Source of the DNA: Bacteroidia bacterium
Lineage (GTDB): Bacteria > Bacteroidota > Bacteroidia > Bacteroidales > VadinHA17
Assembly: GCA_026391215.1 (NCBI GenBank)
Contig: JAPLDX010000056.1
Span: 32,001-96,000 of the forward strand
Direction of reading: 5' to 3'
DNA length: 64,000 bases
Below the pieces are notes generated by a model. That model worked only from the letters and a program-made list of their open reading frames with translations, was not told where the DNA came from and did no database searches. The position numbers and the translations under genes are program-made. Below, piece after piece: positions 3,360-30,364 of the stretch; within the stretch, counting starts at the first letter, position 1, and each line of letters begins with the position of its first letter.

Positions 3360-6218
3360 ATGATCAAAAGGCTGATTCTGTTAACATTGCTTCTAACTTT
3401 GGCTTCTAACAACTTTTTGTTTCCCCAGGCGAAAGGCGAAATAAAAATAATGTATTATGAAGCCGAAAGCTATATCCTTTTTGAAGATTATAAAGAAGCT
3501 TTACCGTTTTATCAGTCACTTCTGAAATTCTTTCCGACCAATGCAAGTTATAAATACCGGCTCGGACAGTGCTATTTAAACGTACCAGGGGAAAAAGATA
3601 AAGCAATAGGTTTTCTTGAAGATGCAGTAAAGAACATCAATCCGGATTACAAGCAAGGAAAACTCAAGGAAACAGGCGCACCATATGATGCCCTGTATTA
3701 CCTGGCCAATGCATACAGAATTAATAATCAGCTCGATAAGGCTATTGAAACTTACAAGCTTTTCAAAGAGAATCTTGATACCAAAATTTACAATCCGGAT
3801 ATTGTTGACGAACAGATTCAGTCTTGCCTCAATGCTAAAGAGCTGATGAGCATGCCTCTTTTTTTAAAGGAACAAAATCTTGGCAGCAATATAAACGGAG
3901 ACAACTCTGAATTCAATCCCGTTATCTCCGATGATGAGAGAATAATAGTATATTCAAAAAGCGAGGCATTTTACGATGCCGTACTCTATTCTACAAGAAG
4001 TAACGGAGAATGGAGCGGGCCGATAAATCTTAATGAAGCGCTTTCAGTTGATCAGGATCTCTATCCTACTTCCATATCAGCAGATGGCAAGACACTTTAC
4101 CTTTACAGTTCAGAGGGTTATGACGGTATAATATACTCATCATCTTACGAAAATGGAGCCTGGAGCACGCTGACAAAGTTAAATGACAATATCAACACGA
4201 AGTACTGGGAGTCGCATGCAACAATTTCACACGATAATAAAAAGCTCTATTTCACCAGTAACCGGAAAAGTTCACTTGGAGAACTTGATATTTATGTTTC
4301 ATTCAGGGATAGTACAGGAGACTGGGGCCCTGCGGTTAACCTGGGACCTGTGATAAATACCCGGTATCATGAGGAGACTCCCTTCCTCAGCAATGATGAT
4401 AAAACCCTGTATTTCAGTTCCAGGGGCCATTTCAATATGGGAGGATATGACATTTTCTATTCAACACTGCTTGAAAACGGGGAATGGTCGGTACCTCTGA
4501 ATTTAGGTTATCCGCTTAATTCAACCGATGACGATGTTTTCTTCAATCCAATAAATGAAGGTTATGAAGGCTATACTGCCAAATACTCTCCTGATGGCTT
4601 CGGTCACCAGGATATTTACAGGATGGAGATATTCTCTGACGAACATCCGAGAAAATTCACTGTCAGAGGGGTCGTCACGATCGCGGACCTTCTTCACAAT
4701 ATGAATGACAGGATTAAAATAACCGCCCTGAACACAAAAAAAACCGATCAGGTTGTTATTGTCTATTCAAATCCGGAAACTGGCGAATATGAATTACAGC
4801 TTCCCCATGGCAACTATGATTTAACCTATGAGGGTCCGTATGGCACTAAAGTCCAGAAAAATATTGATCTGGCACTGACTCATCCGTCCGACAGCTTTTT
4901 GCTCCCCGGGACAATATTGCCGAGAACAGATTTCATAGCGGATCTGTCTGTTGAAAGTGAAAATGTTATTTCTGTAGCTAAGGGAGATACTATCACATTC
5001 CCTGTGAAAGCTGAACCGGGTTCAATGCTTGTTGTGGAACATTGGGCAGGTGATTCCCTGCTTTACACTGAACAGTTTCCAATGACCGATTCGGCTTTTT
5101 ACTATAAAATGGTACCGCAGCCCGGGGAAAACAAGGTTACCTTTAAAGTTACAGACAGGTTCAGTAATACTACAACCGCTGATGTTCTCATAACCAGAAA
5201 ACCGGATGAGCCCATGCAGCAGGTTATACGTCCCGAGTATAACAGGGTCATTTCTGAAAAGCAGATTGCCGCGCTGACGGAAGTGCAGATGAATCGTGCC
5301 GGGGATAAGCTGAGAGAGATTATTGCAGGATCCGAAATTCATAAGAACCAGTTCGGTAAAATTGATGACCAGATCTCATACATCAAGGCGGAAGCAATAA
5401 AGAAAGGCATCAGTGCTGAAGAGGTAGACCGGCTTGCTCTGGAAGTAGCCTTAAAGGATAATATACTTTCACAGGCTGCAGTTGATTACCTGGCTGCAAA
5501 TACAGACGGTGAGCTGAAAAAGATCCTGAGTGAAATTGATATTTATGATCTGAATTTGAAGACCTGGAATGATCTGCAGAAATATATTGCAGAAAAAACC
5601 AGCGGAAAAATAAGCCCCGATACTCTTGATAAAATTGTAGCTGCTGTTCTTGCCGGACCAGATGTCACAATTTCATCCGGGAAAGATAAAATACTGGCGC
5701 TTAGCGAGAGTTCTGAGTACGGTGAAATATTTAGACAGGCTGTCGCAGCCACCGGGGAAAAAGGCATCAGGGACGGAGGAAAATGGATGCAATCTGTTTA
5801 TAATGAATCCATTAAACTGGGATTGACAGATAAGGAATTTGCAAAGATGATTGCATTAATAAGCTCCCTGCCGGGTACTGATGCTGAACAATTCCGCAGG
5901 GATCTTGCAGCTAATGCTGAAGAGCCTTTCCTGTCCTGGTTGAATTCCCTGGATCTGGAAAAAGAGGGAATAAAGACACCTGAGGATCTCATTTTGTTCA
6001 TCCTGAAGAATAAAAATAAGGTTGTCCCTGAAGAATTAATCTTCCGAGCCCTGGTAAATCTGATAGATCAGAAGGATATCCCCGCTGAAACAATTAAATC
6101 AGGCATTGAAGCTGAAAAAGAATGCAAATGGTGGATATTGTGGCTGATCCTTGGCGCTGGTGCTGCTTTCTTCCTAATCTGGTACTGGAGACGGAGAAAA
6201 GAAAGGAAGAGTGACTGA
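3360..6218 (+). CDS. TPR + PD40 beta-propeller protein with beta-sandwich, helical region and C-terminal membrane anchor
   Basis: Signal peptide; TPR (YRLGQCYL, YYLANAY); PD40 repeats (LYFTSNR..LDIYV, NLGPVINT, LYFSSRGH..GGYDIF); ends WWILWLILGAGAAFFLIWYWRRRKERKSD. Confidence 0.85.
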   Translation: MIKRLILLTLLLTLASNNFLFPQAKGEIKIMYYEAESYILFEDYKEALPFYQSLLKFFPTNASYKYRLGQCYLNVPGEKDKAIGFLEDAVKNINPDYKQGKLKETGAPYDALYYLANAYRINNQLDKAIETYKLFKENLDTKIYNPDIVDEQIQSCLNAKELMSMPLFLKEQNLGSNINGDNSEFNPVISDDERIIVYSKSEAFYDAVLYSTRSNGEWSGPINLNEALSVDQDLYPTSISADGKTLYLYSSEGYDGIIYSSSYENGAWSTLTKLNDNINTKYWESHATISHDNKKLYFTSNRKSSLGELDIYVSFRDSTGDWGPAVNLGPVINTRYHEETPFLSNDDKTLYFSSRGHFNMGGYDIFYSTLLENGEWSVPLNLGYPLNSTDDDVFFNPINEGYEGYTAKYSPDGFGHQDIYRMEIFSDEHPRKFTVRGVVTIADLLHNMNDRIKITALNTKKTDQVVIVYSNPETGEYELQLPHGNYDLTYEGPYGTKVQKNIDLALTHPSDSFLLPGTILPRTDFIADLSVESENVISVAKGDTITFPVKAEPGSMLVVEHWAGDSLLYTEQFPMTDSAFYYKMVPQPGENKVTFKVTDRFSNTTTADVLITRKPDEPMQQVIRPEYNRVISEKQIAALTEVQMNRAGDKLREIIAGSEIHKNQFGKIDDQISYIKAEAIKKGISAEEVDRLALEVALKDNILSQAAVDYLAANTDGELKKILSEIDIYDLNLKTWNDLQKYIAEKTSGKISPDTLDKIVAAVLAGPDVTISSGKDKILALSESSEYGEIFRQAVAATGEKGIRDGGKWMQSVYNESIKLGLTDKEFAKMIALISSLPGTDAEQFRRDLAANAEEPFLSWLNSLDLEKEGIKTPEDLILFILKNKNKVVPEELIFRALVNLIDQKDIPAETIKSGIEAEKECKWWILWLILGAGAAFFLIWYWRRRKERKSD

Positions 6219-6269
6219 TCTTTTTATCTTCCCGAATTTTTTATAAATTTGTTGGCAAAACCAATAGTC

Positions 6270-7544
6270 ATGGGCAAAAGGATTGTCACTCTCCTGGCTG
6301 CAATTGTTTTTGCATTTTCTCTTTACGCACAGGAACTCAAAACTTTCCAAAAATCTTTTATTGAAGCTGAGTATTTTTTTATACAGGAAGATTATTCCGA
6401 TGCACTCTCATATTACCTGCAGCTTTATGAAAAGATGCCGCAAAATGCAAATATTGCATACCGCATAGGCATATGTTACCTGAATATTCCAGGGGAAAAA
6501 AACCTTTCAATTGACTATCTTGAGGCTGCAGCGAAAAATATGTCAGCAAAGCACAGAGAGGGGACAATCAAGCAAAAAGCTGCACCATTTGATGCATTAT
6601 ATGACCTGGCTTCAGCTTACAAGATCAACTATCAGTTTGATAAAGCAAAAGAAATTTTTACAAGGTATCTGGGTACTCTGCTTCCTGACGACCGGGAAAA
6701 CATTGATTTTGTAAACTCCCAGATCAAATCATGCGATATGGCAAAAGAGATTATTGCCAGTCCTGTAATCTATACCGAGGAGAACATGGGGGAAAATTTC
6801 AATGACGATAAATCAAATTTCAATCCTGTAATTTCTGCTGACGGAAAGTCATTCGCCTTTATGGTATCAATGAAGTTCTATGATGCAATTATGCTGTCAA
6901 AATCTGAAAATGGCAGATGGAGCATCCCCGTAAATATTACACCTGAGCTTCAGTCTGACGGTGATATGTATATCTCCTGCCTTTCTCCTAACGGAAAAAC
7001 TTTATTTCTTTCAAAGGATGATAATTTCAACAGCGACATATACACCTGTACATTTGATGGAGTCAGGTGGGGAGTGAGTGTAAGACTAAATAAAAACATA
7101 AATACAAGGTACTGGGAATCACATGGTTTTGTTTCAGAAGACGGGGAACAGCTGATCTTTGCTTCTGATCGTCCCGGTGGATTCGGGGGGCTTGACCTTT
7201 ATATTTCGAAAAAAGTAAATGGTGACTGGGGGCCGCCCGTTAATCTTGGTCCTCAAATCAATACACCATTCAATGAGGACCGCCCTTTTCTCATCAATAA
7301 GGGGAACACACTTTTCTTCAGCTCCCAGGGTCACAGGAATATTGGAGGATATGATCTTTTCAGGTCTGATCTTCAGTCAGATGACCTCTGGAGCATTCCT
7401 GAAAATCTTGGGTACCCTTTCAACACACCCGACGACAATATATTCTTCATGCCTGTCGGGAATGGTAAATCAGGCTATTATTCAGTTTATAAGGAATCAG
7501 AAGGTATGGGGAAAGAGGATATCTACATAGTCACTTTTCAATAA
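6270..7544 (+). CDS. TPR + PD40 beta-propeller protein (no C-terminal extension)
   Basis: Start moved to ATG 6270 (signal peptide MGKR...LYA-Q); FASDRPGGFGGLDLY, NLGPQINT, FSSQGHRNIGGYDLF. Confidence 0.87.
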   Translation: MGKRIVTLLAAIVFAFSLYAQELKTFQKSFIEAEYFFIQEDYSDALSYYLQLYEKMPQNANIAYRIGICYLNIPGEKNLSIDYLEAAAKNMSAKHREGTIKQKAAPFDALYDLASAYKINYQFDKAKEIFTRYLGTLLPDDRENIDFVNSQIKSCDMAKEIIASPVIYTEENMGENFNDDKSNFNPVISADGKSFAFMVSMKFYDAIMLSKSENGRWSIPVNITPELQSDGDMYISCLSPNGKTLFLSKDDNFNSDIYTCTFDGVRWGVSVRLNKNINTRYWESHGFVSEDGEQLIFASDRPGGFGGLDLYISKKVNGDWGPPVNLGPQINTPFNEDRPFLINKGNTLFFSSQGHRNIGGYDLFRSDLQSDDLWSIPENLGYPFNTPDDNIFFMPVGNGKSGYYSVYKESEGMGKEDIYIVTFQ

Positions 7545-20028: not shown

Positions 20029-20811
20029 ATGAAAAAATCGCTGCTGTTATCATTTACAGTTGTGTTATCCTTTTTATTATCACTCAGTTTTAATATTGAG
20101 GGTCAGACTGTAGTATTCTCAGAAAATTTCTCAGGTTTCTCCAACGGTACACATGCTTCTCAATCTTCGTATGATTATTCGGGTGTTCTTGACACAAAAA
20201 CCCAGCTGCCCGGATGGACAGGATATAAGGTCTATTCAGCGGGCGGAGAGATCAAGCTGGGTACTTCAGATGTACCCGGATGGATTGAGACTCCGTCAAT
20301 TGATTTGTCGGGATATGAAGGAGATGTTTTCATTGAATTTGATATTTCAAGATGGCCGGATGATGCTGCAATTGTACAGGTTTCACTTAACGGCTTTCCG
20401 CTTGGTAATACAATTGCTCCTGCCGATGAATTCCAGACTGTAGAAATACTGCTTACTGAGGAAATCACTTCAGCAAAGATAAAATTTGAATCTCTCGCGA
20501 AAAGGTTCTTCCTTGATAATGTCCGGGTTGTTGCTCAGAATGCCACATCTGCCGGCAATAATTATAAATTTGAATCCCGGATAAAAGTGTACCCGAACCC
20601 TGCCGGTGATTTAATCAATATCGACAATTTGAATGGAATAAGCAGGTTAGAGATTATTAACTTAAACGGAAGAGTAATGGAAGCGATTGACCTTTCAGAT
20701 ACAGAAAAGGTTGATCTGGCTTTGAACGACTTTCCGCCGGGCATTTATTTAATAAGATTTTTCACCGGCAGGAGTTCTTTTACAACAAGGTTTGTAAAAT
20801 ATAAAAAGTAA
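20029..20811 (+). CDS. Small T9SS cargo protein (type A C-terminal domain)
   Basis: Signal peptide ending in Gln; KVYPNPA...GIYLIR...RFVK CTD. Confidence 0.85.
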   Translation: MKKSLLLSFTVVLSFLLSLSFNIEGQTVVFSENFSGFSNGTHASQSSYDYSGVLDTKTQLPGWTGYKVYSAGGEIKLGTSDVPGWIETPSIDLSGYEGDVFIEFDISRWPDDAAIVQVSLNGFPLGNTIAPADEFQTVEILLTEEITSAKIKFESLAKRFFLDNVRVVAQNATSAGNNYKFESRIKVYPNPAGDLINIDNLNGISRLEIINLNGRVMEAIDLSDTEKVDLALNDFPPGIYLIRFFTGRSSFTTRFVKYKK

Positions 20812-21425: not shown

Positions 21426-22658
21426 ATGGGACTCAGAGGCCGGCTTATCATAATGAACTTCCTCCAGTTCTTTATCTGGGGATCGTGGTTGCTAACCATC
21501 GGGGCATATTGGTTTCAGAACAAAAACTGGTCAGGAACCGATTTCGGAGCTATCTTTTCAACAATGGGACTGGCTTCACTCTTCATGCCGGCCATTGCCG
21601 GGATCATTGCCGACAGGTGGGTCAATGCCGAAAGGGTGTATGGCATCTTTCACATTGCAGGTGCCGTCCTGCTTACACTAATTCCGTCCATCACTAATCC
21701 TGACACCTTTTTCTGGATTCTGCTGCTTACGATGATGTTCTACATGCCCACCCTGGCTCTGGCTATCACGGTGGCATACAGCTCTATGAAAAAGAGTGGT
21801 ATGGATATAATAAAGGATTACCCGCCGGTGAGGGTCTGGGGTACGATCGGCTTCATAGTGGCGCTGTGGGTGGTAAGCCTGCTGGGCTTTGAAACCTCAC
21901 CCTTGCAGTTCTATGTTGCGGCTGCCGCCTCTCTCCTGCTTGGTCTCTATGCCTTTACCCTCCCAAAGTGTCCGCCACTGGGCAGGGGACACAAGAAGAA
22001 ACTGGCAGAAGAGCTGGGTCTCAATGCCTTCAGACTTTTCAAAAGTTCCAAAATGGCCATCTTTTTCATCTTCGCCATGCTCCTGGGCGGTGCTCTGCAG
22101 CTGACCAACGCCTACGGCGACACTTTTCTGCACGATTTTGCAGACATACCGGAGTATAAAGACCTTCTTGCCGTAAGGTATCCAGCCATAATAATGTCAG
22201 TCTCACAGATCTCCGAAACCCTCTTCATTCTTACCATTCCCTTTTTCCTGAAAAAATTCGGGATAAAGAAGGTGATGCTGATGAGCATGGTGGCTTGGAT
22301 TCTCCGTTTCGGCCTGTTCGGATTCGGAAATCCCGCCGAAGGGCTCTGGCTGATCATCCTCTCATGCATCATTTACGGTATGGCCTTTGATTTCTTCAAT
22401 ATCTCGGGTTCCCTCTTCGTTGAGACCCAGTGTACTCCTGACATACGTGCCAGCGGCCAGGGCCTGTTCATGATGATGACTAACGGCTTCGGTGCTTTCC
22501 TTGGCAGCAGGATAAGCGGGATCGTGATTGACAAATACTTTACCCTGGGAGGCGGCGTATTCGACTGGAAGGGGATCTGGTTCACCTTTGCGGGTTATGC
22601 CCTGGTGGTGGTAATCCTCTTCGTCATACTCTTCAGGCATAAGCATGTTCAGAAGTAA
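21426..22658 (+). CDS. nupG: Nucleoside:H+ symporter (NHS family MFS)
   Basis: MNFLQFFIWGSW, GIIADRW, YPPVRVWGTIGF, SQISE, YGMAFDFFNISG, RASGQG. Confidence 0.92.
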   Translation: MGLRGRLIIMNFLQFFIWGSWLLTIGAYWFQNKNWSGTDFGAIFSTMGLASLFMPAIAGIIADRWVNAERVYGIFHIAGAVLLTLIPSITNPDTFFWILLLTMMFYMPTLALAITVAYSSMKKSGMDIIKDYPPVRVWGTIGFIVALWVVSLLGFETSPLQFYVAAAASLLLGLYAFTLPKCPPLGRGHKKKLAEELGLNAFRLFKSSKMAIFFIFAMLLGGALQLTNAYGDTFLHDFADIPEYKDLLAVRYPAIIMSVSQISETLFILTIPFFLKKFGIKKVMLMSMVAWILRFGLFGFGNPAEGLWLIILSCIIYGMAFDFFNISGSLFVETQCTPDIRASGQGLFMMMTNGFGAFLGSRISGIVIDKYFTLGGGVFDWKGIWFTFAGYALVVVILFVILFRHKHVQK

Positions 22659-23449
22659 ACAGCTACCTGCCCTTGTTCAGGGAGAGCCCTGTAGATGATC
22701 TTTGCGTCGGTGCGGGGGATCCGTAGTTTAATAAATGGCTGATAATCAGGTACCCTGAAAGTAACAACTCTTAAGAATGTATTCCCGGCATTGATCAGCC
22801 TGTACCGCAGGTTAAATATGAAAAGACGTATCCCGTCACCAGACCGTAATTTTCCTTCCTGATAGATAAAAAGTCTCGTTCCGTTATCCATTTCCAAAAT
22901 GTAGTTCACCGGTTCATAATCGGCAGTATCGGGAATAATATCAGGTTTGAATTCAGAAGTATCTTTAGGAGCCATCCTGATCATGAGCGGTTCCTTCTCA
23001 ATGGAAGCTATACTCTTACTGATCGTAAATGGATTGGAAAGCATTGACAGAATGACATAATCGTTTTTTGCGCTTAACATCCTGCTGACTTTCATCTTCT
23101 TTATATCTGCTTTATGGACAACCACACCGTTTATCTCAAGGTTTACAGTACTATCAGGCATGTCGATAGTAAGGTAAATTGAATCGGACTCAGCCATTGC
23201 AACTTTTGACTGAAGGAATGATTTCTCCTTTAATAATGACAGATATGTTGAATCAGTAAATATCCTTTCGTCGACAGGTTTCTTTTCATCCTGCCTGAAC
23301 CCGTATATGTTTTTTAATTCTTTATATTTTTTTGCCGGGGCCAGCAATGTCATGATCGAATAATAAATCAGGAAACACAGTACGATGACTATCCATACAA
23401 TTATTTTGTATTTCCTGTCTGCAGATGTATATTCTTTTTCTGTTTCCAT
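22649..23449 (-). CDS. Membrane-anchored YkuD-like protein lacking the catalytic His/Cys
   Basis: N-terminal TM; IYLTID..DSTVNLEING start and LRIPRTDAKIIYRALPEQGQVAVY end align by eye with the neighbouring L,D-transpeptidase; no IHG or HGC motif. Confidence 0.65.
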   Translation of the reverse strand: METEKEYTSADRKYKIIVWIVIVLCFLIYYSIMTLLAPAKKYKELKNIYGFRQDEKKPVDERIFTDSTYLSLLKEKSFLQSKVAMAESDSIYLTIDMPDSTVNLEINGVVVHKADIKKMKVSRMLSAKNDYVILSMLSNPFTISKSIASIEKEPLMIRMAPKDTSEFKPDIIPDTADYEPVNYILEMDNGTRLFIYQEGKLRSGDGIRLFIFNLRYRLINAGNTFLRVVTFRVPDYQPFIKLRIPRTDAKIIYRALPEQGQVAVYF

Positions 23450-23466
23450 ATCGGTTCTTATCCGGA

Positions 23467-24279
23467 TCAGAATATGTATACTTTAGATCCTATGCTGAGG
23501 GTATTAAAAATAACCTTCAGATCTTCATCATTAAGACGGACACAACCATGAGTTACGGGCATGCCCAGAAACCTTTTGTAAATGGTTCCGTGGATCAGGT
23601 AACCATCACCCAGGGCGAGCGCATATTCTCCAAGCACTCCGTATTCATACCTCGAATAGTGGTCCTGAGGAGGTATTGGCAGTCCTTCCTCAACAAATGC
23701 CCAGTCAGGTTTCTTCCAGTAAGGATTTGTAGTTTTCCCCTGTATCCAGAATCTTCCCTTTGGAGTCTTAAATGTCCAGCTTCTTCCTTCCTCTGTTTTT
23801 AGCAATTTATAACTGCCTGTGCTGCAATGGCCTTCTCTCACAAGCTTCTTATTCCTGTAAAGACAAAAGAGGTTATCAGTTGTGTTGATCACAAGGTATG
23901 ATTGACCCGATGTATAGCTGTTATATTTTCTTGAAAGACGCTGAACATCTCTCTTTATCTGAGCTATCTGTTTCTTATAAACTGCGTCCTTCTTCAGTTC
24001 ATCTGAATTTTCAATGACAATTTTTACCACCCGGGGAATCTCTTGTATTGCCGGAATTGCATTGATAAAAAAGGCAAACAGTGAAGCTATGATTAATAAG
24101 ATAAGGAGCCCCATTGATAATGGCCGCAGAACTCTTATAACCTTTTCATTATCAAGTATTCTCTGGTAAAATGAATTGCCGGTGCCTTTTATCTCTTCTG
24201 TGGCATCAGGATCATTTTCAGCCGGTGTCTTTTCTATGCCGGGAAGTAATCCGTTATCAGGTATGAATTCATCTTCCAT
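23467..24279 (-). CDS. L,D-transpeptidase, ErfK/YbiS/YcfS-like YkuD family, with TM anchor and coiled coil
   Basis: YLVINT, CSTG, TPKGRF, PYWKKPDW, LGEYAL, YLIHGT, VTHGCVRL. Confidence 0.92.
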   Translation of the reverse strand: MEDEFIPDNGLLPGIEKTPAENDPDATEEIKGTGNSFYQRILDNEKVIRVLRPLSMGLLILLIIASLFAFFINAIPAIQEIPRVVKIVIENSDELKKDAVYKKQIAQIKRDVQRLSRKYNSYTSGQSYLVINTTDNLFCLYRNKKLVREGHCSTGSYKLLKTEEGRSWTFKTPKGRFWIQGKTTNPYWKKPDWAFVEEGLPIPPQDHYSRYEYGVLGEYALALGDGYLIHGTIYKRFLGMPVTHGCVRLNDEDLKVIFNTLSIGSKVYIF

Positions 24280-24289
24280 CAGTGCAGAT

Positions 24290-25349
24290 TTATCTGTTCA
24301 GGACATGCCTGAGGCTGTACATAGATCCAACAATTGTTACAGGAGTTCCCTCCCTCACATACTTGAATATACTATCCATTTCCCTGTCTTTCAGAGCGAT
24401 GCATCCCGCAGTCCAGTCTGCGCCTCTTCCGCCGTTTCCATGAATTTCTATCATATCCCCTATCCTGGCTGAGCGTGATATACTGCCGCTTTCTATGGCA
24501 TGATTGAATTCCAATGTATCCTCCTCATTCGGGTAGTTAATCAGAAGCGCCTTATAATACTTGGTACTGTCACTTTCAAATTTCCTGGATATTTTATACA
24601 TGCCCTCAGGCCGCAGTGAATTCGGTAATTTTTGTTCCGTCAAGATAAACAAAAAATTTATGTGAAAATTTGTCGACGATGATCGAGTAATCATGACTTT
24701 CTCTCGATAAGGCTAAAGTGCTGTCAATCCATATTTTCCATTGAGGATATGATCTGAAATAACTCTTCAGGTTTTCATCAGCATATTGATAAGAAGATCC
24801 CAGGAGAGACTTTGAATCTGATATCTTGCTCTCTGCCTGGAGGTAATTGCCTTCCCTATAAGCTAATTCCGCTTCCCTCATCAGCATTTTTCCCAATGAT
24901 ATCTTATTACGTACTTCGATTGTCAGGGGATATGTCGGGAAGATCTTATTGATCTTTGCCATAAGGTCGTTAATGTCTTTCAACTCCTGTTCCAGGCGGA
25001 CCCTGAGGCTTGAAGTATTGTATACTGAGATTTCAGAAGCTTCTTTTGCTTTATTTGAGGATAATTCAGCCAGGGCGAGTATTTTGCTGTAATTTCTTTT
25101 ATAGATGAACTTTGTGTTTTCGCGCCTCCAGTTGGCCATTGCAGAATCGTAACAATTCATGGTTTCTTTGAACAGTTCCTCTGAGTAGATATCAGCTTTG
25201 TTTTTGCGGGCCAGGGAAATAGCTTCACGTGCCTCCTTCATTTCTTTTGCGGGAGGAGGAGGAACAGGATAAAAGAAAAGGAAAACCATCAGGGTTATGA
25301 AAACTGCAATTGCAGAAATTATAAGAATATGCCACCAGGGTTTTCCCAT
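24290..25349 (-). pseudogene. TM + helical (DUF4398-like) + YafK/DpaA-like YkuD enzyme, split by an out-of-frame internal deletion near 24606-24613
   Basis: ORF 24606-25349 ends IIVDK..FVYLDG....FTA*; another frame resumes at PEGMY..YYKALLINYPN..D..GDMIEIHG..WTAGCIAL. The LG...GxK...GD..T segment normally before PEG is absent. Could be an assembly error. Confidence 0.75.
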
Positions 25350-25370
25350 TAAAAGTGATTTTAGTTACCC

Positions 25371-25399
25371 AAAAAAAACCCCGGGGATAAACCCGGGGA
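25371..25399 (-). terminator. Intrinsic terminator directly after the lipoprotein gene, inside the operon
   Basis: Minus strand CCCCGGG-tttatc-CCCGGGG followed by T8. Confidence 0.85.
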
Positions 25400-25429
25400 T
25401 ATTTCTTATTTCATGAAATTGATGACAGA

Positions 25430-26026
25430 TTAGAATCTGATCCTTGCTTTTGTTAAAGCTTCCTTGATTTCAGCGTTCAAACCGTCAGCTTTTTCTTTAG
25501 CAGCTTTGATCTTGTTAAGTGCATCCATGAAAGCACCCTTGTCATATGCGCCCTGAGCTTCAGCAACTGCAGCGTCGACATTTGACAGGTCAGCTTTGAT
25601 CTGCTCAATAACAGCAGCACCTTCTTTACCTCTCGGGAGTTTGAGAACGAGCTTGCCGTTTTCAGTAACAACATTCTTTATGTCGTTCAGAAGAGTTTCA
25701 GCTTCTTTCTTAATTTCATCTTTCTTGGCGGCTACTTTACCGGCGACCTCATTTGCCAGTGTTGTAACAGCAGCTAATTTTTCTTTTTCAGCTGCCATGC
25801 CTTTAAATAATTTTCCTTCTTTGGCTTCAATTGCAGCCATAACAGCGTTCAGTGAATCCTGTACTGCTGCGAATTCAGCAGGTAAATAAACATTAGCTTC
25901 TGCTACCTTAGCAGCCTCAATAGCAGCATTGGTTGCATCAATTTCAACTTGCGGTTTTTTTCCGCAACTGGAAAGAACAGCAACCATTGCGATAGCTGCC
26001 AGTCCCATTAAAATTTTACTTTTCAT
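25430..26026 (-). CDS. Ala/Lys/Glu-rich helical lipoprotein (DUF4398-like)
   Basis: Lipobox LSSC; PQVEIDATNAAIEAAKVAEANVYLPAEF motif; amphipathic helices throughout. Confidence 0.85.
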   Translation of the reverse strand: MKSKILMGLAAIAMVAVLSSCGKKPQVEIDATNAAIEAAKVAEANVYLPAEFAAVQDSLNAVMAAIEAKEGKLFKGMAAEKEKLAAVTTLANEVAGKVAAKKDEIKKEAETLLNDIKNVVTENGKLVLKLPRGKEGAAVIEQIKADLSNVDAAVAEAQGAYDKGAFMDALNKIKAAKEKADGLNAEIKEALTKARIRF

Positions 26027-26213: not shown

Positions 26214-28454
26214 CTAATCAATAATAGAAAATTCCGTTTTTTTATTATCGGTAGAGTTTGTTCCGATAAAGAGTTCAAAGTCACCCGGATCATAGCTGTA
26301 ACTCATATCCTGATGATAATACGACAGATCTTTCGGGTATATCGTAAAAGATATACTGGCTGTTTCCCCTTTCCTTATCAGGACCTTCATAAAACCCTTC
26401 AGCTCCTTAACAGGTCTTGTCACATCGCCGATAAGGTCCCTGATATAAAGCTGCACAATTTCTTCTCCATCCCTGTCGCCGGTATTTTTCACCTCAACAG
26501 AAGCGATAATCTGTTCAGTTCCCCCGAATGATTGCTTGTTAAGCTTTATATCCGAGTAACTGAATGTTGTATAACTCAATCCGTAGCCAAAAGGATAGAG
26601 CGGAGTATTGGGACTGTCAAGATAATTTGATTTGAACTTCTCATAAGGATTTTCCCGATTTATAGGCCTTCCCGTATTCTTTGAATTATAGAATATTGGA
26701 ATTTGCCCGACATTCAGTGGGAATGTCATGGTGATCTTCCCTGAAGGATTCACGTCTCCGAACAGGACATCAGCAATTCCGTTTCCGGCCTCAGTGCCAC
26801 CAAACCATGTTTCAAGTATTGCCGGAGCCATTTTATCGAGTTTGGGAATTGCAAGAGGCCTCCCATTAAACAGGACTACGGCAACAGGTTTACCTGTCCT
26901 GATTATAGCCTCAGCCAGCTCCATCTGCACTCCTGGCAGGGAGATATCTGTACGGCTGGCAGCCTCGCCGCTCATCATGAAATTCTCTCCAAGGGCGAGG
27001 ATAATGAAATCAGCTTTTTTCGCTGTCGAAACTGCCTGGTTGATCCCGCTCAGGTCGTTATCATTCACATTGCATCCTTTTGCTGTTAATAAATTAACAG
27101 TACTTCCTACCTTGTTCTTAATTCCTTCAACCAGGGTGACAGCTTTATCAAACTGCCCTGCCCCAAACCAGAACCCGAGCATATCCATCTTTGAATCTGC
27201 AAGCGGACCGATCACAGCGATGGTCCTGGCTGACTTCGGAACGGGAAGCGTATTATTATTCTTAAGAAGTACGCATGATTTTGCCACAAATTCCCTGGCA
27301 AACGAGCGGTGCTCAGGAGTCATTATCTCCTCAGCTTCCCTCTTTTTATCACAGTATTTGTACGGATCATCGAATAATCCCAGTTTGTACTTTGCTACAA
27401 GGATCCTGCGAACCGCATTATCAAGTGTCTCTTCACTCACTTTCCCTGATTTCACCAGATCGGTAAGTTGTGTCAGAAATGCGCTTCCCTGCATATCCAT
27501 ATCAACTCCTGCATTCATTGCAAGCTCTGATGCTTGCGAAAGATCCGAAGCGACGCCATGAGGGATCAGCTCATTAAGCGAGCTATAGTCGGTTACGATA
27601 AAACCATCAAATTTCCAGTCATCGCGAAGCAGGTCGGTCAGCAGCCATCTGTTTGACGTTGCCGGAACTCCTGCAATTTCATTGAATGAAGTCATTACAG
27701 AACCGACACCTGCATCCACAGCTGCCTGATATGGAGGGAGATACCATTCATAGAGAGATCTCTCCGACATATCCACCACATGGTAGTCTCTTCCTCCCTG
27801 GGGCGCTCCGTAGGCTGCAAAGTGTTTCACACATGCAAGAACGGTATTATTATCTGACAATGAAGATCCCTGGAAACCTCGTACCCTGGCAGCTGATATC
27901 AGCGATCCCAGGAAGGTATCCTCACCTGCTCCTTCCATCACCCTTCCCCATCTTGGATCACGTGCAATATCTACCATAGGAGCAAATACCCAGTTGAGAC
28001 CCTCAGCCGTGGCTTCAATGGCTGCGATACGCTCTGATTTTTCGATCATTGCAGTATCCCATGATGCTGCCTGTCCAAGGTTTATCGGAAAGATTGTCCT
28101 GTGACCATGAATAACGTCATATCCAAAGATCAGAGGAATATGCAGGCGGGTTTCTTCAACGGCTATTTTCTGAAGATTCCTTACAAAATCCACAGTATAG
28201 GCATTAAAGACAGCGCCGACCTTTCCCTGCCTGATAAGATCAATATAATCATTCCTCATGGTCGGCCCGGTCAGTGACATGTCGCTTGTAAAAAGCGACA
28301 CCTGTCCTATCTTTTCATCGAGAGTCATAAGTTTGATAATGGAATCTGCCTTCTTGTTATAAAGAGATGCAACATCTCCCGGCTTTGTCTTGCAGCTACT
28401 CGCAAACATAATTGTTACAAGAAGGAGGACAATAGGTAATCGTCTGTTTTTCAT
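26214..28454 (-). CDS. bglX: Beta-glucosidase BglX (GH3), lipoprotein
   Basis: Lipobox ASSC; GYDVIHG, RDPRWGR, KHFAAYG, VTDY nucleophile, SGEA acid/base, PLYPFGYGLSYT, FN3-like end. Confidence 0.93.
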   Translation of the reverse strand: MKNRRLPIVLLLVTIMFASSCKTKPGDVASLYNKKADSIIKLMTLDEKIGQVSLFTSDMSLTGPTMRNDYIDLIRQGKVGAVFNAYTVDFVRNLQKIAVEETRLHIPLIFGYDVIHGHRTIFPINLGQAASWDTAMIEKSERIAAIEATAEGLNWVFAPMVDIARDPRWGRVMEGAGEDTFLGSLISAARVRGFQGSSLSDNNTVLACVKHFAAYGAPQGGRDYHVVDMSERSLYEWYLPPYQAAVDAGVGSVMTSFNEIAGVPATSNRWLLTDLLRDDWKFDGFIVTDYSSLNELIPHGVASDLSQASELAMNAGVDMDMQGSAFLTQLTDLVKSGKVSEETLDNAVRRILVAKYKLGLFDDPYKYCDKKREAEEIMTPEHRSFAREFVAKSCVLLKNNNTLPVPKSARTIAVIGPLADSKMDMLGFWFGAGQFDKAVTLVEGIKNKVGSTVNLLTAKGCNVNDNDLSGINQAVSTAKKADFIILALGENFMMSGEAASRTDISLPGVQMELAEAIIRTGKPVAVVLFNGRPLAIPKLDKMAPAILETWFGGTEAGNGIADVLFGDVNPSGKITMTFPLNVGQIPIFYNSKNTGRPINRENPYEKFKSNYLDSPNTPLYPFGYGLSYTTFSYSDIKLNKQSFGGTEQIIASVEVKNTGDRDGEEIVQLYIRDLIGDVTRPVKELKGFMKVLIRKGETASISFTIYPKDLSYYHQDMSYSYDPGDFELFIGTNSTDNKKTEFSIID

Positions 28455-28458
28455 GGGT

Positions 28459-30207
28459 TTATTGTTTAATTATTGAACTTCTCTCACCAATACCGTTTTC
28501 ATTAATCGCCTCAATGGCAAAATAATATAGTTTTTCCTTATCCATAGTTTTCAGCCAGTATTCATTTGCATTGTATACCATTATACAGTTATACAGCTTG
28601 TCAGGGGTAATACCTATGTAAATATTGTATGCATAGGCATTATCAACTCTGTTCCACTTTATCCATGCGCTTCGTTTGTCTTTCTCGGTCCTCAGCACTG
28701 TAAATCCTGTAACAGATGAAGGCGCCTGGCCTGTTCCTTGGCCAAAGACTCTGAATCCGCTGATGCTGAATTTACCTGTGGGCATATGCAGATTTTCCAG
28801 TTTGAGGTATCTCGTCTGAACAGGCCTGGGCAATTCAACATAGTCATGAGGTACATCTGCCATGTTTTTGCTTTTGTCAACCAGAATATTCCACTTTTTA
28901 CCGTCCTTTGATTCAAGTATCCTGTACTGATGATATACTTCGGTTGATTTTCCGAGAAATTCAGCATCCTGGTCCGCATAGTTGATCTGGATTGCCATTA
29001 CTGTTGATATTGTGCCAAGATCAGACTGCATCCATTCGCCGGGATTACCCGTTTCAGCGCTCCAGTATGTTTTAATATCCTCATCTACTGCAAAGTTGGA
29101 ATAATAACTTCCATATGTGGATGATACCATGACAGGTTTGTTGAAATTAAGCAGCATCCAGCCGGTGAAACGGCTCTTAAGATGATCTTCTGTTCCGTCA
29201 GGCAGGTACGTCGGATAATCCCCGAATGCCTGGTTGCAGAACATTATACCGTCTTGATCAAAACCGGCCGGCCAGATGCCAATCCTCCGCTCAAAATTAT
29301 TCTTTACTGAAATTGCTATTGTTGATACATGCCAGTAGTTCTTCCAGTTATCCTGGAATGTCGCACCATGCCCTGCCCCTCTGGCAAATCCGCCGGGCTT
29401 ATAGCTGAAAGGCATCGATTGAGGAGAAAAATATCCCAAGGGATCATCGCCAACCACAACTCCGTCGGCATACCCGCTGAATTCAGTTCCGGGAGCACCG
29501 TATTGCAGGTAATATCTGCCGTTATGTTTTGTCATCCAGGCGCCTTCAATGAATGGATCAAGAAAAGTATCATCATAGTTCTCACCGAAACGCTGCCATC
29601 CATAGCGCCATGGCTCAAGCATGTACATCTCTTTTCTTGTACCGGCAGGCTGTAATGTCTTCCTGTTCAGTTCAATGCCATAAACAGGGTATTTGTTGCT
29701 GCTTCCGTTGTACATGTATAATTTCCCATTATCGTCAGTGAAAAATGCAGGATCCCAACCACCGATTTCGAAAGAATCTATCAGTGGCTTCCAGATATTG
29801 TTTTTCGGATCCGTGCTCATCCAGATTGAAAAAGTCCTGGTATAGGTTGATCCAAAGACCAGCATCGTATCGCTTATTATCCCAACAGCCGGAGCGCACA
29901 GCTCGTCATAGCTGTTGTTCCATGGCCGCAAAAATCTTCTGGAAATATATTTCCATTTAAGCAAATCGCTGCTCCACCAGTATCCCCACTGATTTGTCGA
30001 AAAGAGATAATAATCACCTTTATAATTTACGATAACCGGATCAGCTGTAGCCCTGTGTTTGCCAGCCGCTGTGTAATCCGGAATAGGTGTATATCCATAG
30101 TCAATATTGACTGGGTTGCAATACGTAGTCTGCTTCTGGGCAAAAAGCGGACCTGACAGGCTCAAAAATATTGAAACCGACAGAATTGAATATTTTATAT
30201 TTCTCAT
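28459..30207 (-). CDS. GH43 glycoside hydrolase with discoidin (F5/8 type C) and FN3 domains
   Basis: ADP, WDP, IEG catalytic motifs; GAGHG; AVDEDIKTYWSA..GEWMQSDLG discoidin; C-terminal FN3. Confidence 0.9.
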   Translation of the reverse strand: MRNIKYSILSVSIFLSLSGPLFAQKQTTYCNPVNIDYGYTPIPDYTAAGKHRATADPVIVNYKGDYYLFSTNQWGYWWSSDLLKWKYISRRFLRPWNNSYDELCAPAVGIISDTMLVFGSTYTRTFSIWMSTDPKNNIWKPLIDSFEIGGWDPAFFTDDNGKLYMYNGSSNKYPVYGIELNRKTLQPAGTRKEMYMLEPWRYGWQRFGENYDDTFLDPFIEGAWMTKHNGRYYLQYGAPGTEFSGYADGVVVGDDPLGYFSPQSMPFSYKPGGFARGAGHGATFQDNWKNYWHVSTIAISVKNNFERRIGIWPAGFDQDGIMFCNQAFGDYPTYLPDGTEDHLKSRFTGWMLLNFNKPVMVSSTYGSYYSNFAVDEDIKTYWSAETGNPGEWMQSDLGTISTVMAIQINYADQDAEFLGKSTEVYHQYRILESKDGKKWNILVDKSKNMADVPHDYVELPRPVQTRYLKLENLHMPTGKFSISGFRVFGQGTGQAPSSVTGFTVLRTEKDKRSAWIKWNRVDNAYAYNIYIGITPDKLYNCIMVYNANEYWLKTMDKEKLYYFAIEAINENGIGERSSIIKQ

Positions 30208-30364
30208 TATCAAAATTATAGAAGAATTATTTTTTCGATTTTCTTAAAGGTAAAAAATAGTCAACTGATTAATGCTATTGCCTGTGAAAGCACGACTTTC
30301 AACAATGATCTATATGTTATAAGAAAAGGGCAGTGAAAGTAAGGGAGAAAGGATATTAATTATC

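What the first reader, a model, noticed from the sequence alone, without database searches (positions are those of the whole stretch)
22649..26026. Candidate Lpp-analogous outer membrane-peptidoglycan tether system: lipoprotein + detaching, attaching and dead YkuD enzymes
Seen: a tight minus-strand cluster (gaps 80, 10, 17 nt) of a Lys/Ala-rich helical lipoprotein, a YkuD enzyme with PEG.Y...L.INYPN..D...IEIHG...WTAGC motifs, a YkuD enzyme with P.W..P...LG..AL...YLIHGT...THGCVRL motifs, and a YkuD-like protein without catalytic residues. All three YkuD proteins have an N-terminal TM. Known: in E. coli, ErfK/YbiS/YcfS attach Braun lipoprotein to peptidoglycan through a Lys and YafK/DpaA removes it; the two motif sets resemble these two subfamilies. 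I know of no described Lpp equivalent in Bacteroidota. Inference: a self-contained substrate + attach + detach + scaffold module.
Basis: partly seen in the sequence, partly recalled or inferred. Interest (0 to 1): 0.82.

Follow-up and report, generated by a model that had tools for sequence, protein, structure and literature searches.

The report
Conserved lipoprotein plus L,D-transpeptidase operon
Many uncultured Bacteroidota keep together four genes for a helical lipoprotein, a cell-wall cross-linking enzyme, a related hydrolase and an inactive look-alike; the set may fasten the lipoprotein to the cell wall, but this is untested, and one of the genes is broken in this assembly.

Summary
The cluster is real, and the stated gaps of 80, 10 and 17 nt are right. 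However, the second gene is not one ORF here. A 53-nt gap shifts the frame and removes a conserved 18-residue loop. Contigs from two sister samples carry those 53 nt, so the break is an assembly error or a minor variant.

The order lipoprotein, hydrolase-type YkuD, transpeptidase-type YkuD, dead YkuD is kept in every locus with enough flank:
- 20/20 congeners
- 19/19 loci from other families
- 90/100 loci overall, the other 10 cut by contig ends
- 5/5 loci of a second, high-GC class

New points:
- The lipoprotein is a DUF4398-like paralogue of the hydrolase's own N-domain.
- A terminator hairpin follows the lipoprotein gene in 79/90 loci.
- The fourth protein has a YkuD fold (pLDDT 93, Z 6-6.7) but no conserved His or Cys.
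- The C-terminal residue is not conserved.
- Lys134 in an invariant APRGK[E/D]G loop survives in the high-GC lineages, which have lost most of their lysines.

A reversible covalent lipoprotein-peptidoglycan tether is the best single reading (about 0.35) and is unproven. The scan found this module before, on three other genomes. My literature searches found no description of it.

The parts
25430..26026 (-). Lipoprotein gene (198 aa): signal peptide, lipobox LSSC, then a helical Ala/Lys/Glu-rich DUF4398-like domain. It carries an invariant APRGK[E/D]G loop (Lys134) and a basic C-terminal tail (...TKARIRF).
   Evidence: ORF. Lipobox found in 98 of 103 unique relatives; the other 5 are cut or masked. 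hhalign to the N-domain of the hydrolase gives 91.6% probability, E 8e-7, with reciprocal HMM hits. DUF4398 matches 7/19 members, and the Atlas neighbours are named DUF4398. Lysine conservation.
25379..25398 (-). Intrinsic-terminator-like hairpin (7 G-C pairs, 6-nt loop, then T8) between the lipoprotein gene and the next gene.
   Evidence: A hairpin plus T-run lies at this place in 79/90 related loci, including 14/19 loci of other families whose stems differ in sequence. Control: 2-4 of 90 same-length coding segments match, none with a strong stem.
24606..25349 (-). First piece of the hydrolase-type YkuD gene: membrane anchor, DUF4398-like helical domain and the first strands of the YkuD domain. 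It ends at a premature TGA.
   Evidence: DUF4398 matches 14/20 intact orthologues. Hydrophobic segment at residues 8-26.
24290..24694 (-). Second piece of the same gene, in another frame: YkuD core with IEIHG...WTAGCIAL (Ala at Cys+2). Only residues from about 29 onward match relatives.
   Evidence: PF03734 E 1.7e-9. NF040599 LdtF_DpaA_YafK at 31 bits. Alignment.
24610..24611 (-). Break point. 53 nt that are present in relatives and in sister-sample contigs are missing here. This shifts the frame and removes the conserved L1 loop.
23467..24279 (-). Transpeptidase-type YkuD gene (270 aa): variable cytoplasmic head, membrane anchor, YkuD domain with HGT...THGCVRL (Arg at Cys+2).
   Evidence: PF03734 E 1.4e-21. 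Alignment A3. Nearest solved sequence 4lzh, E 5e-10. It is the only transpeptidase-type YkuD found in this genome.
22649..23449 (-). Catalytically dead YkuD-fold gene (266 aa): membrane anchor, helix, a YkuD-like beta core with a conserved xAP[K/R]DTxE loop and an inserted 25-residue helix.
   Evidence: No family hit. Model pLDDT 92.9. Foldseek top rows are all YkuD proteins. VIA Z 6.0-6.7 over residues 88-266. No conserved His or Cys. 551 cluster representatives in the library.

Best explanation
This is a co-inherited four-gene envelope module.

Components:
- A lipoprotein made in excess. Its gene comes first and is followed by a terminator hairpin.
- Three type-II membrane-anchored periplasmic YkuD-fold proteins: a hydrolase-type enzyme that carries a copy of the lipoprotein's own DUF4398-like domain, a true L,D-transpeptidase, and an inactive paralogue.

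Most likely mechanism:
- The transpeptidase forms an acyl-enzyme with a peptidoglycan tetrapeptide. It transfers the tripeptide (through the L-centre carboxyl of meso-DAP) onto a lysine side chain of the lipoprotein, fixing the lipoprotein to the wall.
- The hydrolase-type enzyme finds the lipoprotein through the shared helical domain and cleaves that bond or trims the donor peptides, which makes the link reversible.
- The dead paralogue acts as a non-catalytic partner.
- The best candidate acceptor is Lys134 in the invariant APRGK[E/D]G loop, not the C-terminal residue.

Shown here: gene content, order, co-inheritance, domain kinship, the catalytic-motif types, the dead active site, the conserved hairpin and the lysine pattern.

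Inferred: every chemical step, the membrane that holds the lipoprotein, and all protein contacts.
For: - Order and co-inheritance. All four genes lie in the same order in 20/20 congeners, in 19/19 loci of other families, in 90/100 loci L033-L132 with the other 10 cut by contig ends, and in 5/5 loci of a second class.
- Co-occurrence. In one sample of 301 genomes of the order, the lipoprotein profile hits 40 and the dead-YkuD profile hits 39, and 38 genomes have both.
- Enzyme types. GC[IV]AL in the hydrolase-type enzyme and HGC[IV]RL in the transpeptidase-type enzyme are kept in both classes. This matches the Ala/Asn versus Arg rule of PMC8263019.
- Shared domain. The lipoprotein and the hydrolase's N-domain are homologous.
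- Terminator. A hairpin follows the lipoprotein gene in 79/90 loci, against 2-4/90 control segments.
- Lysines. Lys134 is Lys in 98/98 relatives. It is also Lys in 5/5 high-GC lipoproteins whose mature Lys count has dropped from 20-23 to 3-7 while Arg rose to 10-15.
- Precedent. An internal-lysine attachment is known for Coxiella LimB (Lys21), per review PMC12729407.
- Donor peptides. Cultured Bacteroidales have DAP-type peptidoglycan (PMC6721243, passages).
Against: - No chemical evidence of any kind.
- The lipoprotein is three times the size of Lpp and has no LPP Pfam hit.
- Its conserved loops look like those of a binding domain, and the same domain is fused to an enzyme. That suits a regulatory or adaptor role equally well.
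- The C-terminal residue varies: F 37, K 34, R 23, other 4 of 98. The tail lysine Lys193 is lost in 2/5 lipoproteins of the second class.
- A second lysine, Lys102, is equally retained, so retention alone does not mark an acceptor.
- The hydrolase clade includes LD-carboxypeptidases.
- The transpeptidase is the only one found in this genome, so it may simply make 3-3 cross-links.
- All three enzymes appear inner-membrane anchored, and the lipoprotein's membrane is unknown.
- Only 39/301 genomes of the order carry the module, so it is not a general tether of the group.
Confidence: 0.35

Rival explanations
1. Peptidoglycan-editing module with non-covalent helpers. The transpeptidase makes 3-3 cross-links. 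The hydrolase-type enzyme is an LD-carboxypeptidase or endopeptidase that controls the supply of tetrapeptide donors. The lipoprotein and the dead paralogue are regulators or adaptors that bind the enzymes or the wall, in the way lipoproteins and degenerate paralogues control other wall enzymes (that comparison is recalled, not from a call).
For: The lipoprotein's domain is also fused to the hydrolase, as expected of an interaction or regulatory domain. The hydrolase's nearest solved relatives include three LD-carboxypeptidases: Bd1075, Pgp2 and Csd6. The transpeptidase is the only one in the genome. In 10/19 loci of other families an ECF sigma factor gene lies divergently upstream, which hints at an envelope-stress regulon. 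No universally conserved C-terminal lysine exists.
Against: A regulator would not obviously need to be made in excess behind a terminator. Two lysines stay Lys where most others became Arg, which is easier to explain by chemistry than by charge. Generic 3-3 cross-linking elsewhere needs no dedicated lipoprotein.
Confidence: 0.3
2. The transpeptidase attaches other envelope proteins (outer-membrane barrels through their N-termini, or an inner-membrane protein) to peptidoglycan. The lipoprotein is a helper rather than the substrate.
For: L,D-transpeptidases attach beta-barrel proteins in Coxiella and Brucella and the inner-membrane protein OutB in Dickeya (review PMC12729407, passages and table legends; listing).
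Against: No candidate substrate is co-inherited other than the lipoprotein. The conserved Lys of the dead paralogue's APKDT loop is Arg or absent in the second class, so that protein is a poor candidate.
Confidence: 0.1
3. In this particular organism the module is decaying: the hydrolase gene is a genuine pseudogene and the system is no longer complete.
For: The window sequence has the 53-nt gap and a frameshift.
Against: Near-identical contigs from sister samples X2 and X3 carry the missing segment. All 20 congeners have the gene intact. The possible source run has no contig across the site, which suggests an assembly problem there.
Confidence: 0.15

Closest known systems
Escherichia coli Lpp with LdtA/B/C (attachment) and DpaA/LdtF/YafK (detachment)
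   Same: A helical lipoprotein is found together with a transpeptidase-type YkuD (Arg after the Cys) and a hydrolase-type YkuD (Ala after the Cys). A basic C-terminal tail of the form [TA]K[AVY][RK] recalls the ATKYRK end of Lpp. E. coli lpp also lies beside an L,D-transpeptidase gene, ldtE.
   Different: There is no sequence kinship to Lpp (no PF04728 hit). The mature protein is 177 aa against 58 and is DUF4398-like. The C-terminal Lys is not conserved. The enzymes are membrane-anchored and encoded in one operon with the lipoprotein. A dead paralogue is present. The hydrolase carries a copy of the lipoprotein's domain. Scores lie far below the NCBIfam equivalog cut-offs (31 versus 365 bits; 38 versus 583 bits).
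Coxiella burnetii LimB and beta-barrel tethers; Dickeya dadantii OutB
   Same: These are proteins other than Lpp that L,D-transpeptidases fix to meso-DAP. LimB is fixed through an internal lysine (Lys21), and OutB is an inner-membrane protein (review PMC12729407).
   Different: They are unrelated proteins in Proteobacteria. No dedicated operon, fused recognition domain or pseudoenzyme is described in the passages I read.
YkuD-family hydrolases Csd6 (Helicobacter), Pgp2 (Campylobacter), Bd1075 (Bdellovibrio) and DpaA
   Same: The long L1 loop motif GdK..GD..TPeG.Y....YPN..D is shared, and the Arg after the Cys is missing (PMC10653827 passages).
   Different: Those proteins are soluble, and the three carboxypeptidases carry a C-terminal NTF2-like domain (recalled). 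This one has an N-terminal membrane anchor and a DUF4398-like domain. I could not decide whether it has the aromatic D-Ala pocket of the carboxypeptidases.
Pfam DUF4398 (PF14346)
   Same: Weak profile matches in 14/20 hydrolase orthologues (best E 5.8e-5) and in 7/19 lipoproteins (best E 1.7e-3). The Atlas neighbours are named DUF4398.
   Different: The window's own lipoprotein does not reach E 1. The family has no described function: three papers mention it in passing (listing only).

Membership tests
YkuD / L,D-transpeptidase catalytic domain (PF03734) | Profile match above the gathering score | tested here: met
   Third gene: 78 bits against a cut-off of 23.4. C-piece of the second gene: 38.9 bits. 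20/20 intact orthologues of the second gene match.
YkuD / L,D-transpeptidase catalytic domain (PF03734) | Catalytic His ... (S/T)xGC motif | tested here: met
   IHGT...THGCVRL in the third gene and IEIHG...TAGCIAL in the second, invariant in relatives.
YkuD, applied to the fourth gene | Profile match and catalytic His/Cys | tested here: not met
   No Pfam or NCBIfam hit. hhalign to the two enzymes gives 1.6-3.5% probability. No conserved His or Cys in 131 sequences. Only the fold is shared: Z 6.0-6.7, about 100 aligned residues, rmsd 3-4.5 A.
True LD-transpeptidases (LdtA-E type) | Arg two residues after the catalytic Cys | tested here: met
   GCVRL in the third gene. HGC[IV]RL in all loci of both classes that were inspected. 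The rule is taken from PMC8263019.
LdtA/B/C/E equivalogs (NCBIfam PRK10260, PRK10190, LdtE) | Score above the curated cut-off | tested here: not met
   33-38 bits against cut-offs of 480-583. Only the catalytic loop aligns.
DpaA / LdtF / YafK amidase (NF040599) | Score above the curated cut-off | tested here: not met
   31 bits against 365 for the window's C-piece. It is still the best-scoring NCBIfam family.
DpaA-like / LD-carboxypeptidase clade of YkuD | Ala or Asn instead of Arg at Cys+2, and a long L1 loop with the conserved Lys | tested here: met
   GCIAL. The L1 motif aligns with 7o21, 8ikr, 6xj6 and 4xzz. In the window's own copy the L1 loop is deleted.
DpaA amidase as opposed to LD-carboxypeptidase | Absence of the aromatic D-Ala pocket (Tyr/Trp of Csd6) | tested here: inconclusive
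   The sequence alignments to the solved proteins do not cover the pocket residues reliably (features from PMC10653827).
Braun lipoprotein Lpp (PF04728) | Profile match | tested here: not met
   LPP is not among the families listed at E up to 1.
Braun lipoprotein Lpp | C-terminal Lys as acceptor | tested here: not met
   The window protein ends in F. The last residue is K in 34/98, R in 23, F in 37 and other in 4.
Braun lipoprotein Lpp | Covalent bond to meso-DAP; outer-membrane anchoring; high abundance | not testable with these tools
   Only indirect hints: a conserved terminator after the gene, and the conserved sequence after the lipobox Cys is GK[VK]PQ with no acidic residues directly behind the Cys.
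DUF4398 (PF14346) | Profile match | tested here: inconclusive
   7/19 lipoproteins (best E 1.7e-3) and 14/20 hydrolase orthologues (best E 5.8e-5). The window's own copies are not listed.

The most novel reading that the evidence does not exclude
The module is the first covalent lipoprotein-to-peptidoglycan tether outside the Proteobacteria, and it is built differently from Lpp. An abundant DUF4398-like lipoprotein is fixed through an internal loop lysine (Lys134) by a dedicated membrane-anchored L,D-transpeptidase. It is released by a hydrolase that recognises it through a fused copy of the same domain. The process is governed by a pseudo-transpeptidase. All four parts are encoded in one operon, so the whole cycle could be transplanted and tested as a unit.
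Probability: 0.3. Interest if true: 0.85.

Novelty: new variant of a known kind. Interest (0 to 1): 0.6.

Why it matters
Covalent anchoring of envelope proteins to the cell wall by L,D-transpeptidases is known in Proteobacteria. A survey of 1,093 genomes places Lpp itself in only four gammaproteobacterial orders (bioRxiv 10.1101/2021.05.31.446380, passages). A 2025 review of these enzymes does not contain the word stem 'Bacteroid'.

A self-contained operon in Bacteroidota with a candidate substrate, an attaching enzyme, a removing enzyme and a dead paralogue would widen the known range of such tethers. It would also give a first function to a DUF4398-like domain and to a family of at least 551 clusters of pseudo-YkuD proteins. 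It names concrete residues to mutate.

If the rival reading is right, it would instead be the first case of lipoprotein or pseudoenzyme control of an L,D-transpeptidase.

Tried and rejected
- **Complex prediction** (lipoprotein with the periplasmic parts of the third and fourth proteins). No result exists.
- **RNA evidence.** No RNA holder is listed among the sequencing runs.
- **Programmed frameshift in the second gene.** Rejected: 18 conserved residues are missing, not just the frame.
- **First model of the fourth protein** from 20 close sequences. It was poor (pLDDT 62) and gave no usable fold match.
- **Foldseek on the good model.** It stays above E 1e-3 (best 3.4e-3), although every row shown is a YkuD protein.
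- **Profile-profile comparison** of the fourth protein with the enzymes. Insignificant.
- **C-terminal or tail lysine as universal acceptor.** Rejected.
- **Lys162 of the dead paralogue as acceptor.** Rejected: it is Arg or absent in the second class.
- **Solved homologue of the lipoprotein by sequence.** Nothing below E 0.4.
- **Organism names for distant relatives.** Cluster look-up gave none. One search gave a single named hit, a Breznakibacter sp. MAG.
- **Reads at the break.** Run X1 (the possible source) has no contig over the break, and the X4 pieces stop on both sides of it, so neither decides the matter.
- **Presence in other phyla,** claimed by earlier notes of this scan. Not tested.
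- **Supplements of the papers.** Not seen. Those of PMC8263019 and of the tethering preprint may list Bacteroidota DpaA-like genes.


Full report
**What is in the window.** On the minus strand lie four tightly spaced reading units.
- A 198-aa lipoprotein gene at 25430-26026.
- A 270-aa gene at 23467-24279.
- A 266-aa gene at 22649-23449.

The gaps of 80, 10 and 17 nt are as stated. The neighbours are a GH3-like gene upstream on the same strand and a convergent MFS transporter gene downstream that overlaps the last gene's end by 10 nt.

Pfam finds YkuD in the third gene (E 1.4e-21) and in the distal part of the second (E 1.7e-9). It finds nothing credible in the lipoprotein or in the fourth gene. 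Each of the three non-lipoprotein products has one strongly hydrophobic N-terminal segment, preceded by Lys or Arg. That fits type-II anchors with the bulk of the protein in the periplasm; this topology is an inference.

**The second gene is broken in this sequence.**
- It reads as two frames: 24606-25349 ending in TGA, and 24290-24694.
- In 20 of 20 genomes of the same genus the orthologue is one ORF of 369-376 aa.
- The protein alignment shows that the window lacks 18 highly conserved residues, ELGKNWVGDKRxxGDKAT.
- At the DNA level the five nearest relatives all have 53 extra bases at window position 24610/24611.
- These residues form the long L1 loop shared with DpaA, Csd6, Pgp2 and Bd1075. 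That loop lines the DAP pocket, according to PMC10653827 (passages).

Laying public contigs on the region gave three results.
- A 2,026-nt contig of run X2 (another sample of the same study, one differing letter on each side) bridges the site with '53 letters between'.
- A contig of X3 runs on at 24610 into letters whose reverse complement, by eye, matches the segment seen in the relatives.
- The possible source run X1 has no contig over 24037-25583.

So the break is most likely an assembly fault or a minority variant. A programmed frameshift is excluded because residues are missing, not only the frame.

**Conservation.** A single-protein search with the third gene found it in 23 of 24 other genomes of the genus and in none of 16 genomes of other families. 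That reflects the limited reach of a single query.

With a profile of the fourth protein, 39 of 301 genomes of the order matched, in 29 of 208 genera. With the lipoprotein profile, 40 of the same 301 matched. 38 genomes have both. The exceptions are:
- G227, which has only the fourth gene (86% complete, hit at a contig end).
- G033, which has only the lipoprotein, on a roughly 1-kb contig.
- G036, with a marginal lipoprotein hit (E 6.5e-4).

Gene order lipoprotein, hydrolase-type, transpeptidase-type, dead paralogue holds as follows.
- 20/20 congeneric loci.
- 19/19 loci from other families with enough flank.
- 90 of the 100 loci L033-L132. The other 10 all start at a contig end inside the cluster.

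A phylum-wide draw found the fourth gene in only 3 of 401 genomes. One of them, G358, belongs to another class and has 69% GC. A deeper profile found it in 10 of 151 genomes of that class, 5 of them at E 1e-23 or better. All 5 loci that I inspected there have the four genes in the same order.

Pairwise distances of the four proteins over 85 loci correlate with r between 0.78 and 0.91. This is expected of a unit inherited together; because relatives share history, it is no more than that.

**The enzymes.**

The third protein has the full transpeptidase signature, including Arg two residues after the catalytic Cys (GCVRL). Its nearest solved sequence is an L,D-transpeptidase (4lzh, E 5e-10). NCBIfam models for LdtB-like, LdtA/C-like and LdtE proteins all score 33-38 bits, far below their cut-offs. 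They therefore cannot tell a protein-attaching enzyme from a cross-linking one.

The second protein has Ala at that position (GCIAL). PMC8263019 describes this as typical of DpaA-like proteins and notes that LD-carboxypeptidases also lack the Arg (passages).
- Its nearest solved sequences are Bd1075 (7o21), 8ikr (a YkuD-domain protein), Pgp2 and Csd6 (4xzz), at E 5e-7 to 4e-5.
- Its best NCBIfam hit is LdtF_DpaA_YafK, at 31 bits against a cut-off of 365.
- I could not decide between the amidase and carboxypeptidase types.

Both motif types are kept in the second class. In this genome the two genes are the only YkuD matches above the Pfam cut-off. One further frame scores 19 bits.

**The fourth protein.** It has no family hit, and profile-profile comparison with the enzymes is insignificant. 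A library-wide profile search found 551 cluster representatives at E up to 1e-3, and 455 at E up to 1e-10.

With 130 of them added to the alignment, the AlphaFold2 model rose from pLDDT 62 to 92.9, with pTM 0.87.
- Every Foldseek row shown is a YkuD-domain protein (best E 3.4e-3, probability 1.00).
- VIA-align gives Z 6.0-6.7 with about 100 aligned residues over model residues 88-266. 70 of 996 chains reach Z 5 or more.
- A middling Z would mean little on its own. The exclusivity of the matches makes a shared fold likely.

No His or Cys is conserved. By the weak alignment the catalytic His corresponds to Gln197, and the Cys to a hydrophobic residue at 239/240.

**The lipoprotein.**
- 98 of 103 unique relatives have a lipobox; the other 5 are cut or masked. 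The sequence after the Cys is conserved as GK[VK]PQ.
- 1,455 database proteins match at E up to 1e-3. None of the 120 listed has a Pfam domain.
- It is homologous to the N-terminal helical domain of the hydrolase-type enzyme: hhalign 91.6% probability, E 8e-7 over 149 columns, and reciprocal HMM hits of E 1e-5 to 1e-11 in most loci.
- Both are distant DUF4398 relatives: 14/20 and 7/19 members, with Atlas neighbours of that name.
- It has no solved homologue by sequence.

It is therefore not a short coiled coil like Lpp. It is a discrete domain that also occurs fused to one of the enzymes.

**Lysines.**
- The last residue is F in 37, K in 34, R in 23 and other in 4 of 98.
- A Lys lies within the last 7 residues in all 98.
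- Lys134 and Lys193 are invariant in these 98.
- The tail resembles the ATKYRK end of E. coli Lpp, but only as a short basic motif.

In the high-GC class the mature lipoproteins have only 3-7 Lys, against 20-23 in Bacteroidales, and 10-15 Arg. Lys193 is lost in 2 of 5. Lys134, in an invariant APRGK[E/D]G loop, and Lys102 remain Lys in 5 of 5. Where most lysines became arginine, retained lysines suggest a need for the amine itself. This moves the best candidate acceptor away from the C-terminus. It does not prove attachment.

**Expression signal.** Between the lipoprotein gene and the next gene lies a hairpin of seven G-C pairs followed by eight T (25398-25379).
- By one fixed rule such a hairpin occurs at this place in 79 of 90 loci. 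Two of these have only 5-pair stems.
- It occurs in 14 of 19 loci of other families, with quite different stem sequences.
- Same-length segments inside the four coding regions match in 2-4 of 90, none with a strong stem.
- G358 has a GC-rich inverted repeat followed by TTTT that fails the scanning rule.

The likely meaning is that the lipoprotein is made in excess over the enzymes. This is an inference.

**Context elsewhere.** In 10 of 19 loci of other families an ECF-type sigma factor gene (Sigma70_r2 plus r4_2) and a small gene of no known family lie divergently upstream. They are not in this window.

**Reading.** The module certainly acts on peptidoglycan stem peptides at the third residue. 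That follows from the two enzyme types and from the DAP-type wall of cultured Bacteroidales (PMC6721243, passages).

In favour of a reversible covalent tether:
- The strict co-inheritance of the lipoprotein with the enzymes.
- The terminator architecture.
- The pairing of a transpeptidase with a DpaA-clade hydrolase.
- The hydrolase's copy of the lipoprotein's domain, which could serve to recognise the lipoprotein.
- The retained lysines.

In favour of a non-covalent regulator or adaptor:
- The domain-like nature of the lipoprotein.
- The variable C-terminus.
- The carboxypeptidase relatives of the hydrolase.
- The fact that this is the genome's only transpeptidase.

I put the covalent tether at 0.35, the non-covalent editing module at 0.30, and other substrates at 0.10. 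Nothing here tests chemistry, location or contacts. The complex prediction could not be run.

**Literature.** I searched for LD-transpeptidase with Bacteroidetes and covalent attachment (208 papers, 20 listed). I also searched YkuD with Bacteroides (1 paper, unrelated), DUF4398 (3 passing mentions) and Braun with Porphyromonas (49 papers, 12 listed). None showed a described Bacteroidota equivalent in titles or abstracts.
- The 2025 review PMC12729407 has no occurrence of 'Bacteroid'.
- PMC8263019 notes DpaA-like sequences in Bacteroidetes without further study (passage).
- Supplements were not available.

**Earlier notes of this scan.** Three earlier notes describe the same module on other genomes, with the same closest-known system. 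I saw them after forming my reading. They agree with it. One states that the C-terminal lysine is not conserved, which I confirm.

Noticed in passing
L037, L039-L042, L044-L046, L048, L050 (upstream of the lipoprotein gene): In 10 of 19 loci from other families an ECF-type sigma factor gene (Sigma70_r2 + r4_2) lies divergently next to the module, followed by a roughly 135-170-aa ORF with no Pfam hit. This hints at envelope-stress control. It is absent from this window, where a GH3-like gene sits upstream.
   Followed up: partly
L013 (G022), about 5028-5825 and 5856-7087: The fourth gene and the neighbouring MFS gene are each split over several frames in this relative. This looks like an indel-rich assembly rather than decay of the module.
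   Followed up: no
L023 and L025, C-terminus of the lipoprotein: Two congeners extend the lipoprotein's tail with a run of AAKP repeats ending in PKK(K), a flexible lysine-rich appendix.
   Followed up: no
G000:C24:55518-55703 (outside the window): A third, weak YkuD-like frame (19 bits, below the cut-off, 162-aa open frame) is the only other YkuD signal in this genome.
   Followed up: no
G033:C409:412-999: A genome of another family gives a lipoprotein hit that scores higher than the window's own (E 2.6e-104), on a contig of about 1 kb and without the fourth gene. This may be a stray contig from a member of the window's genus.
   Followed up: no
window 20029-20811 (+): A 260-aa secreted protein carries a type IX secretion C-terminal sorting domain (PF18962, E 4e-11).
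   Followed up: partly
window 28459-30213 (-): A GH43 plus F5/8 type C (discoidin) glycoside hydrolase lies next to the GH3-like gene at 26214-28454. This is a small glycan-degrading pair unrelated to the module.
   Followed up: partly
window 22649-22658: The convergent MFS transporter gene (21426-22658, +) overlaps the end of the fourth gene by 10 nt.
   Followed up: no
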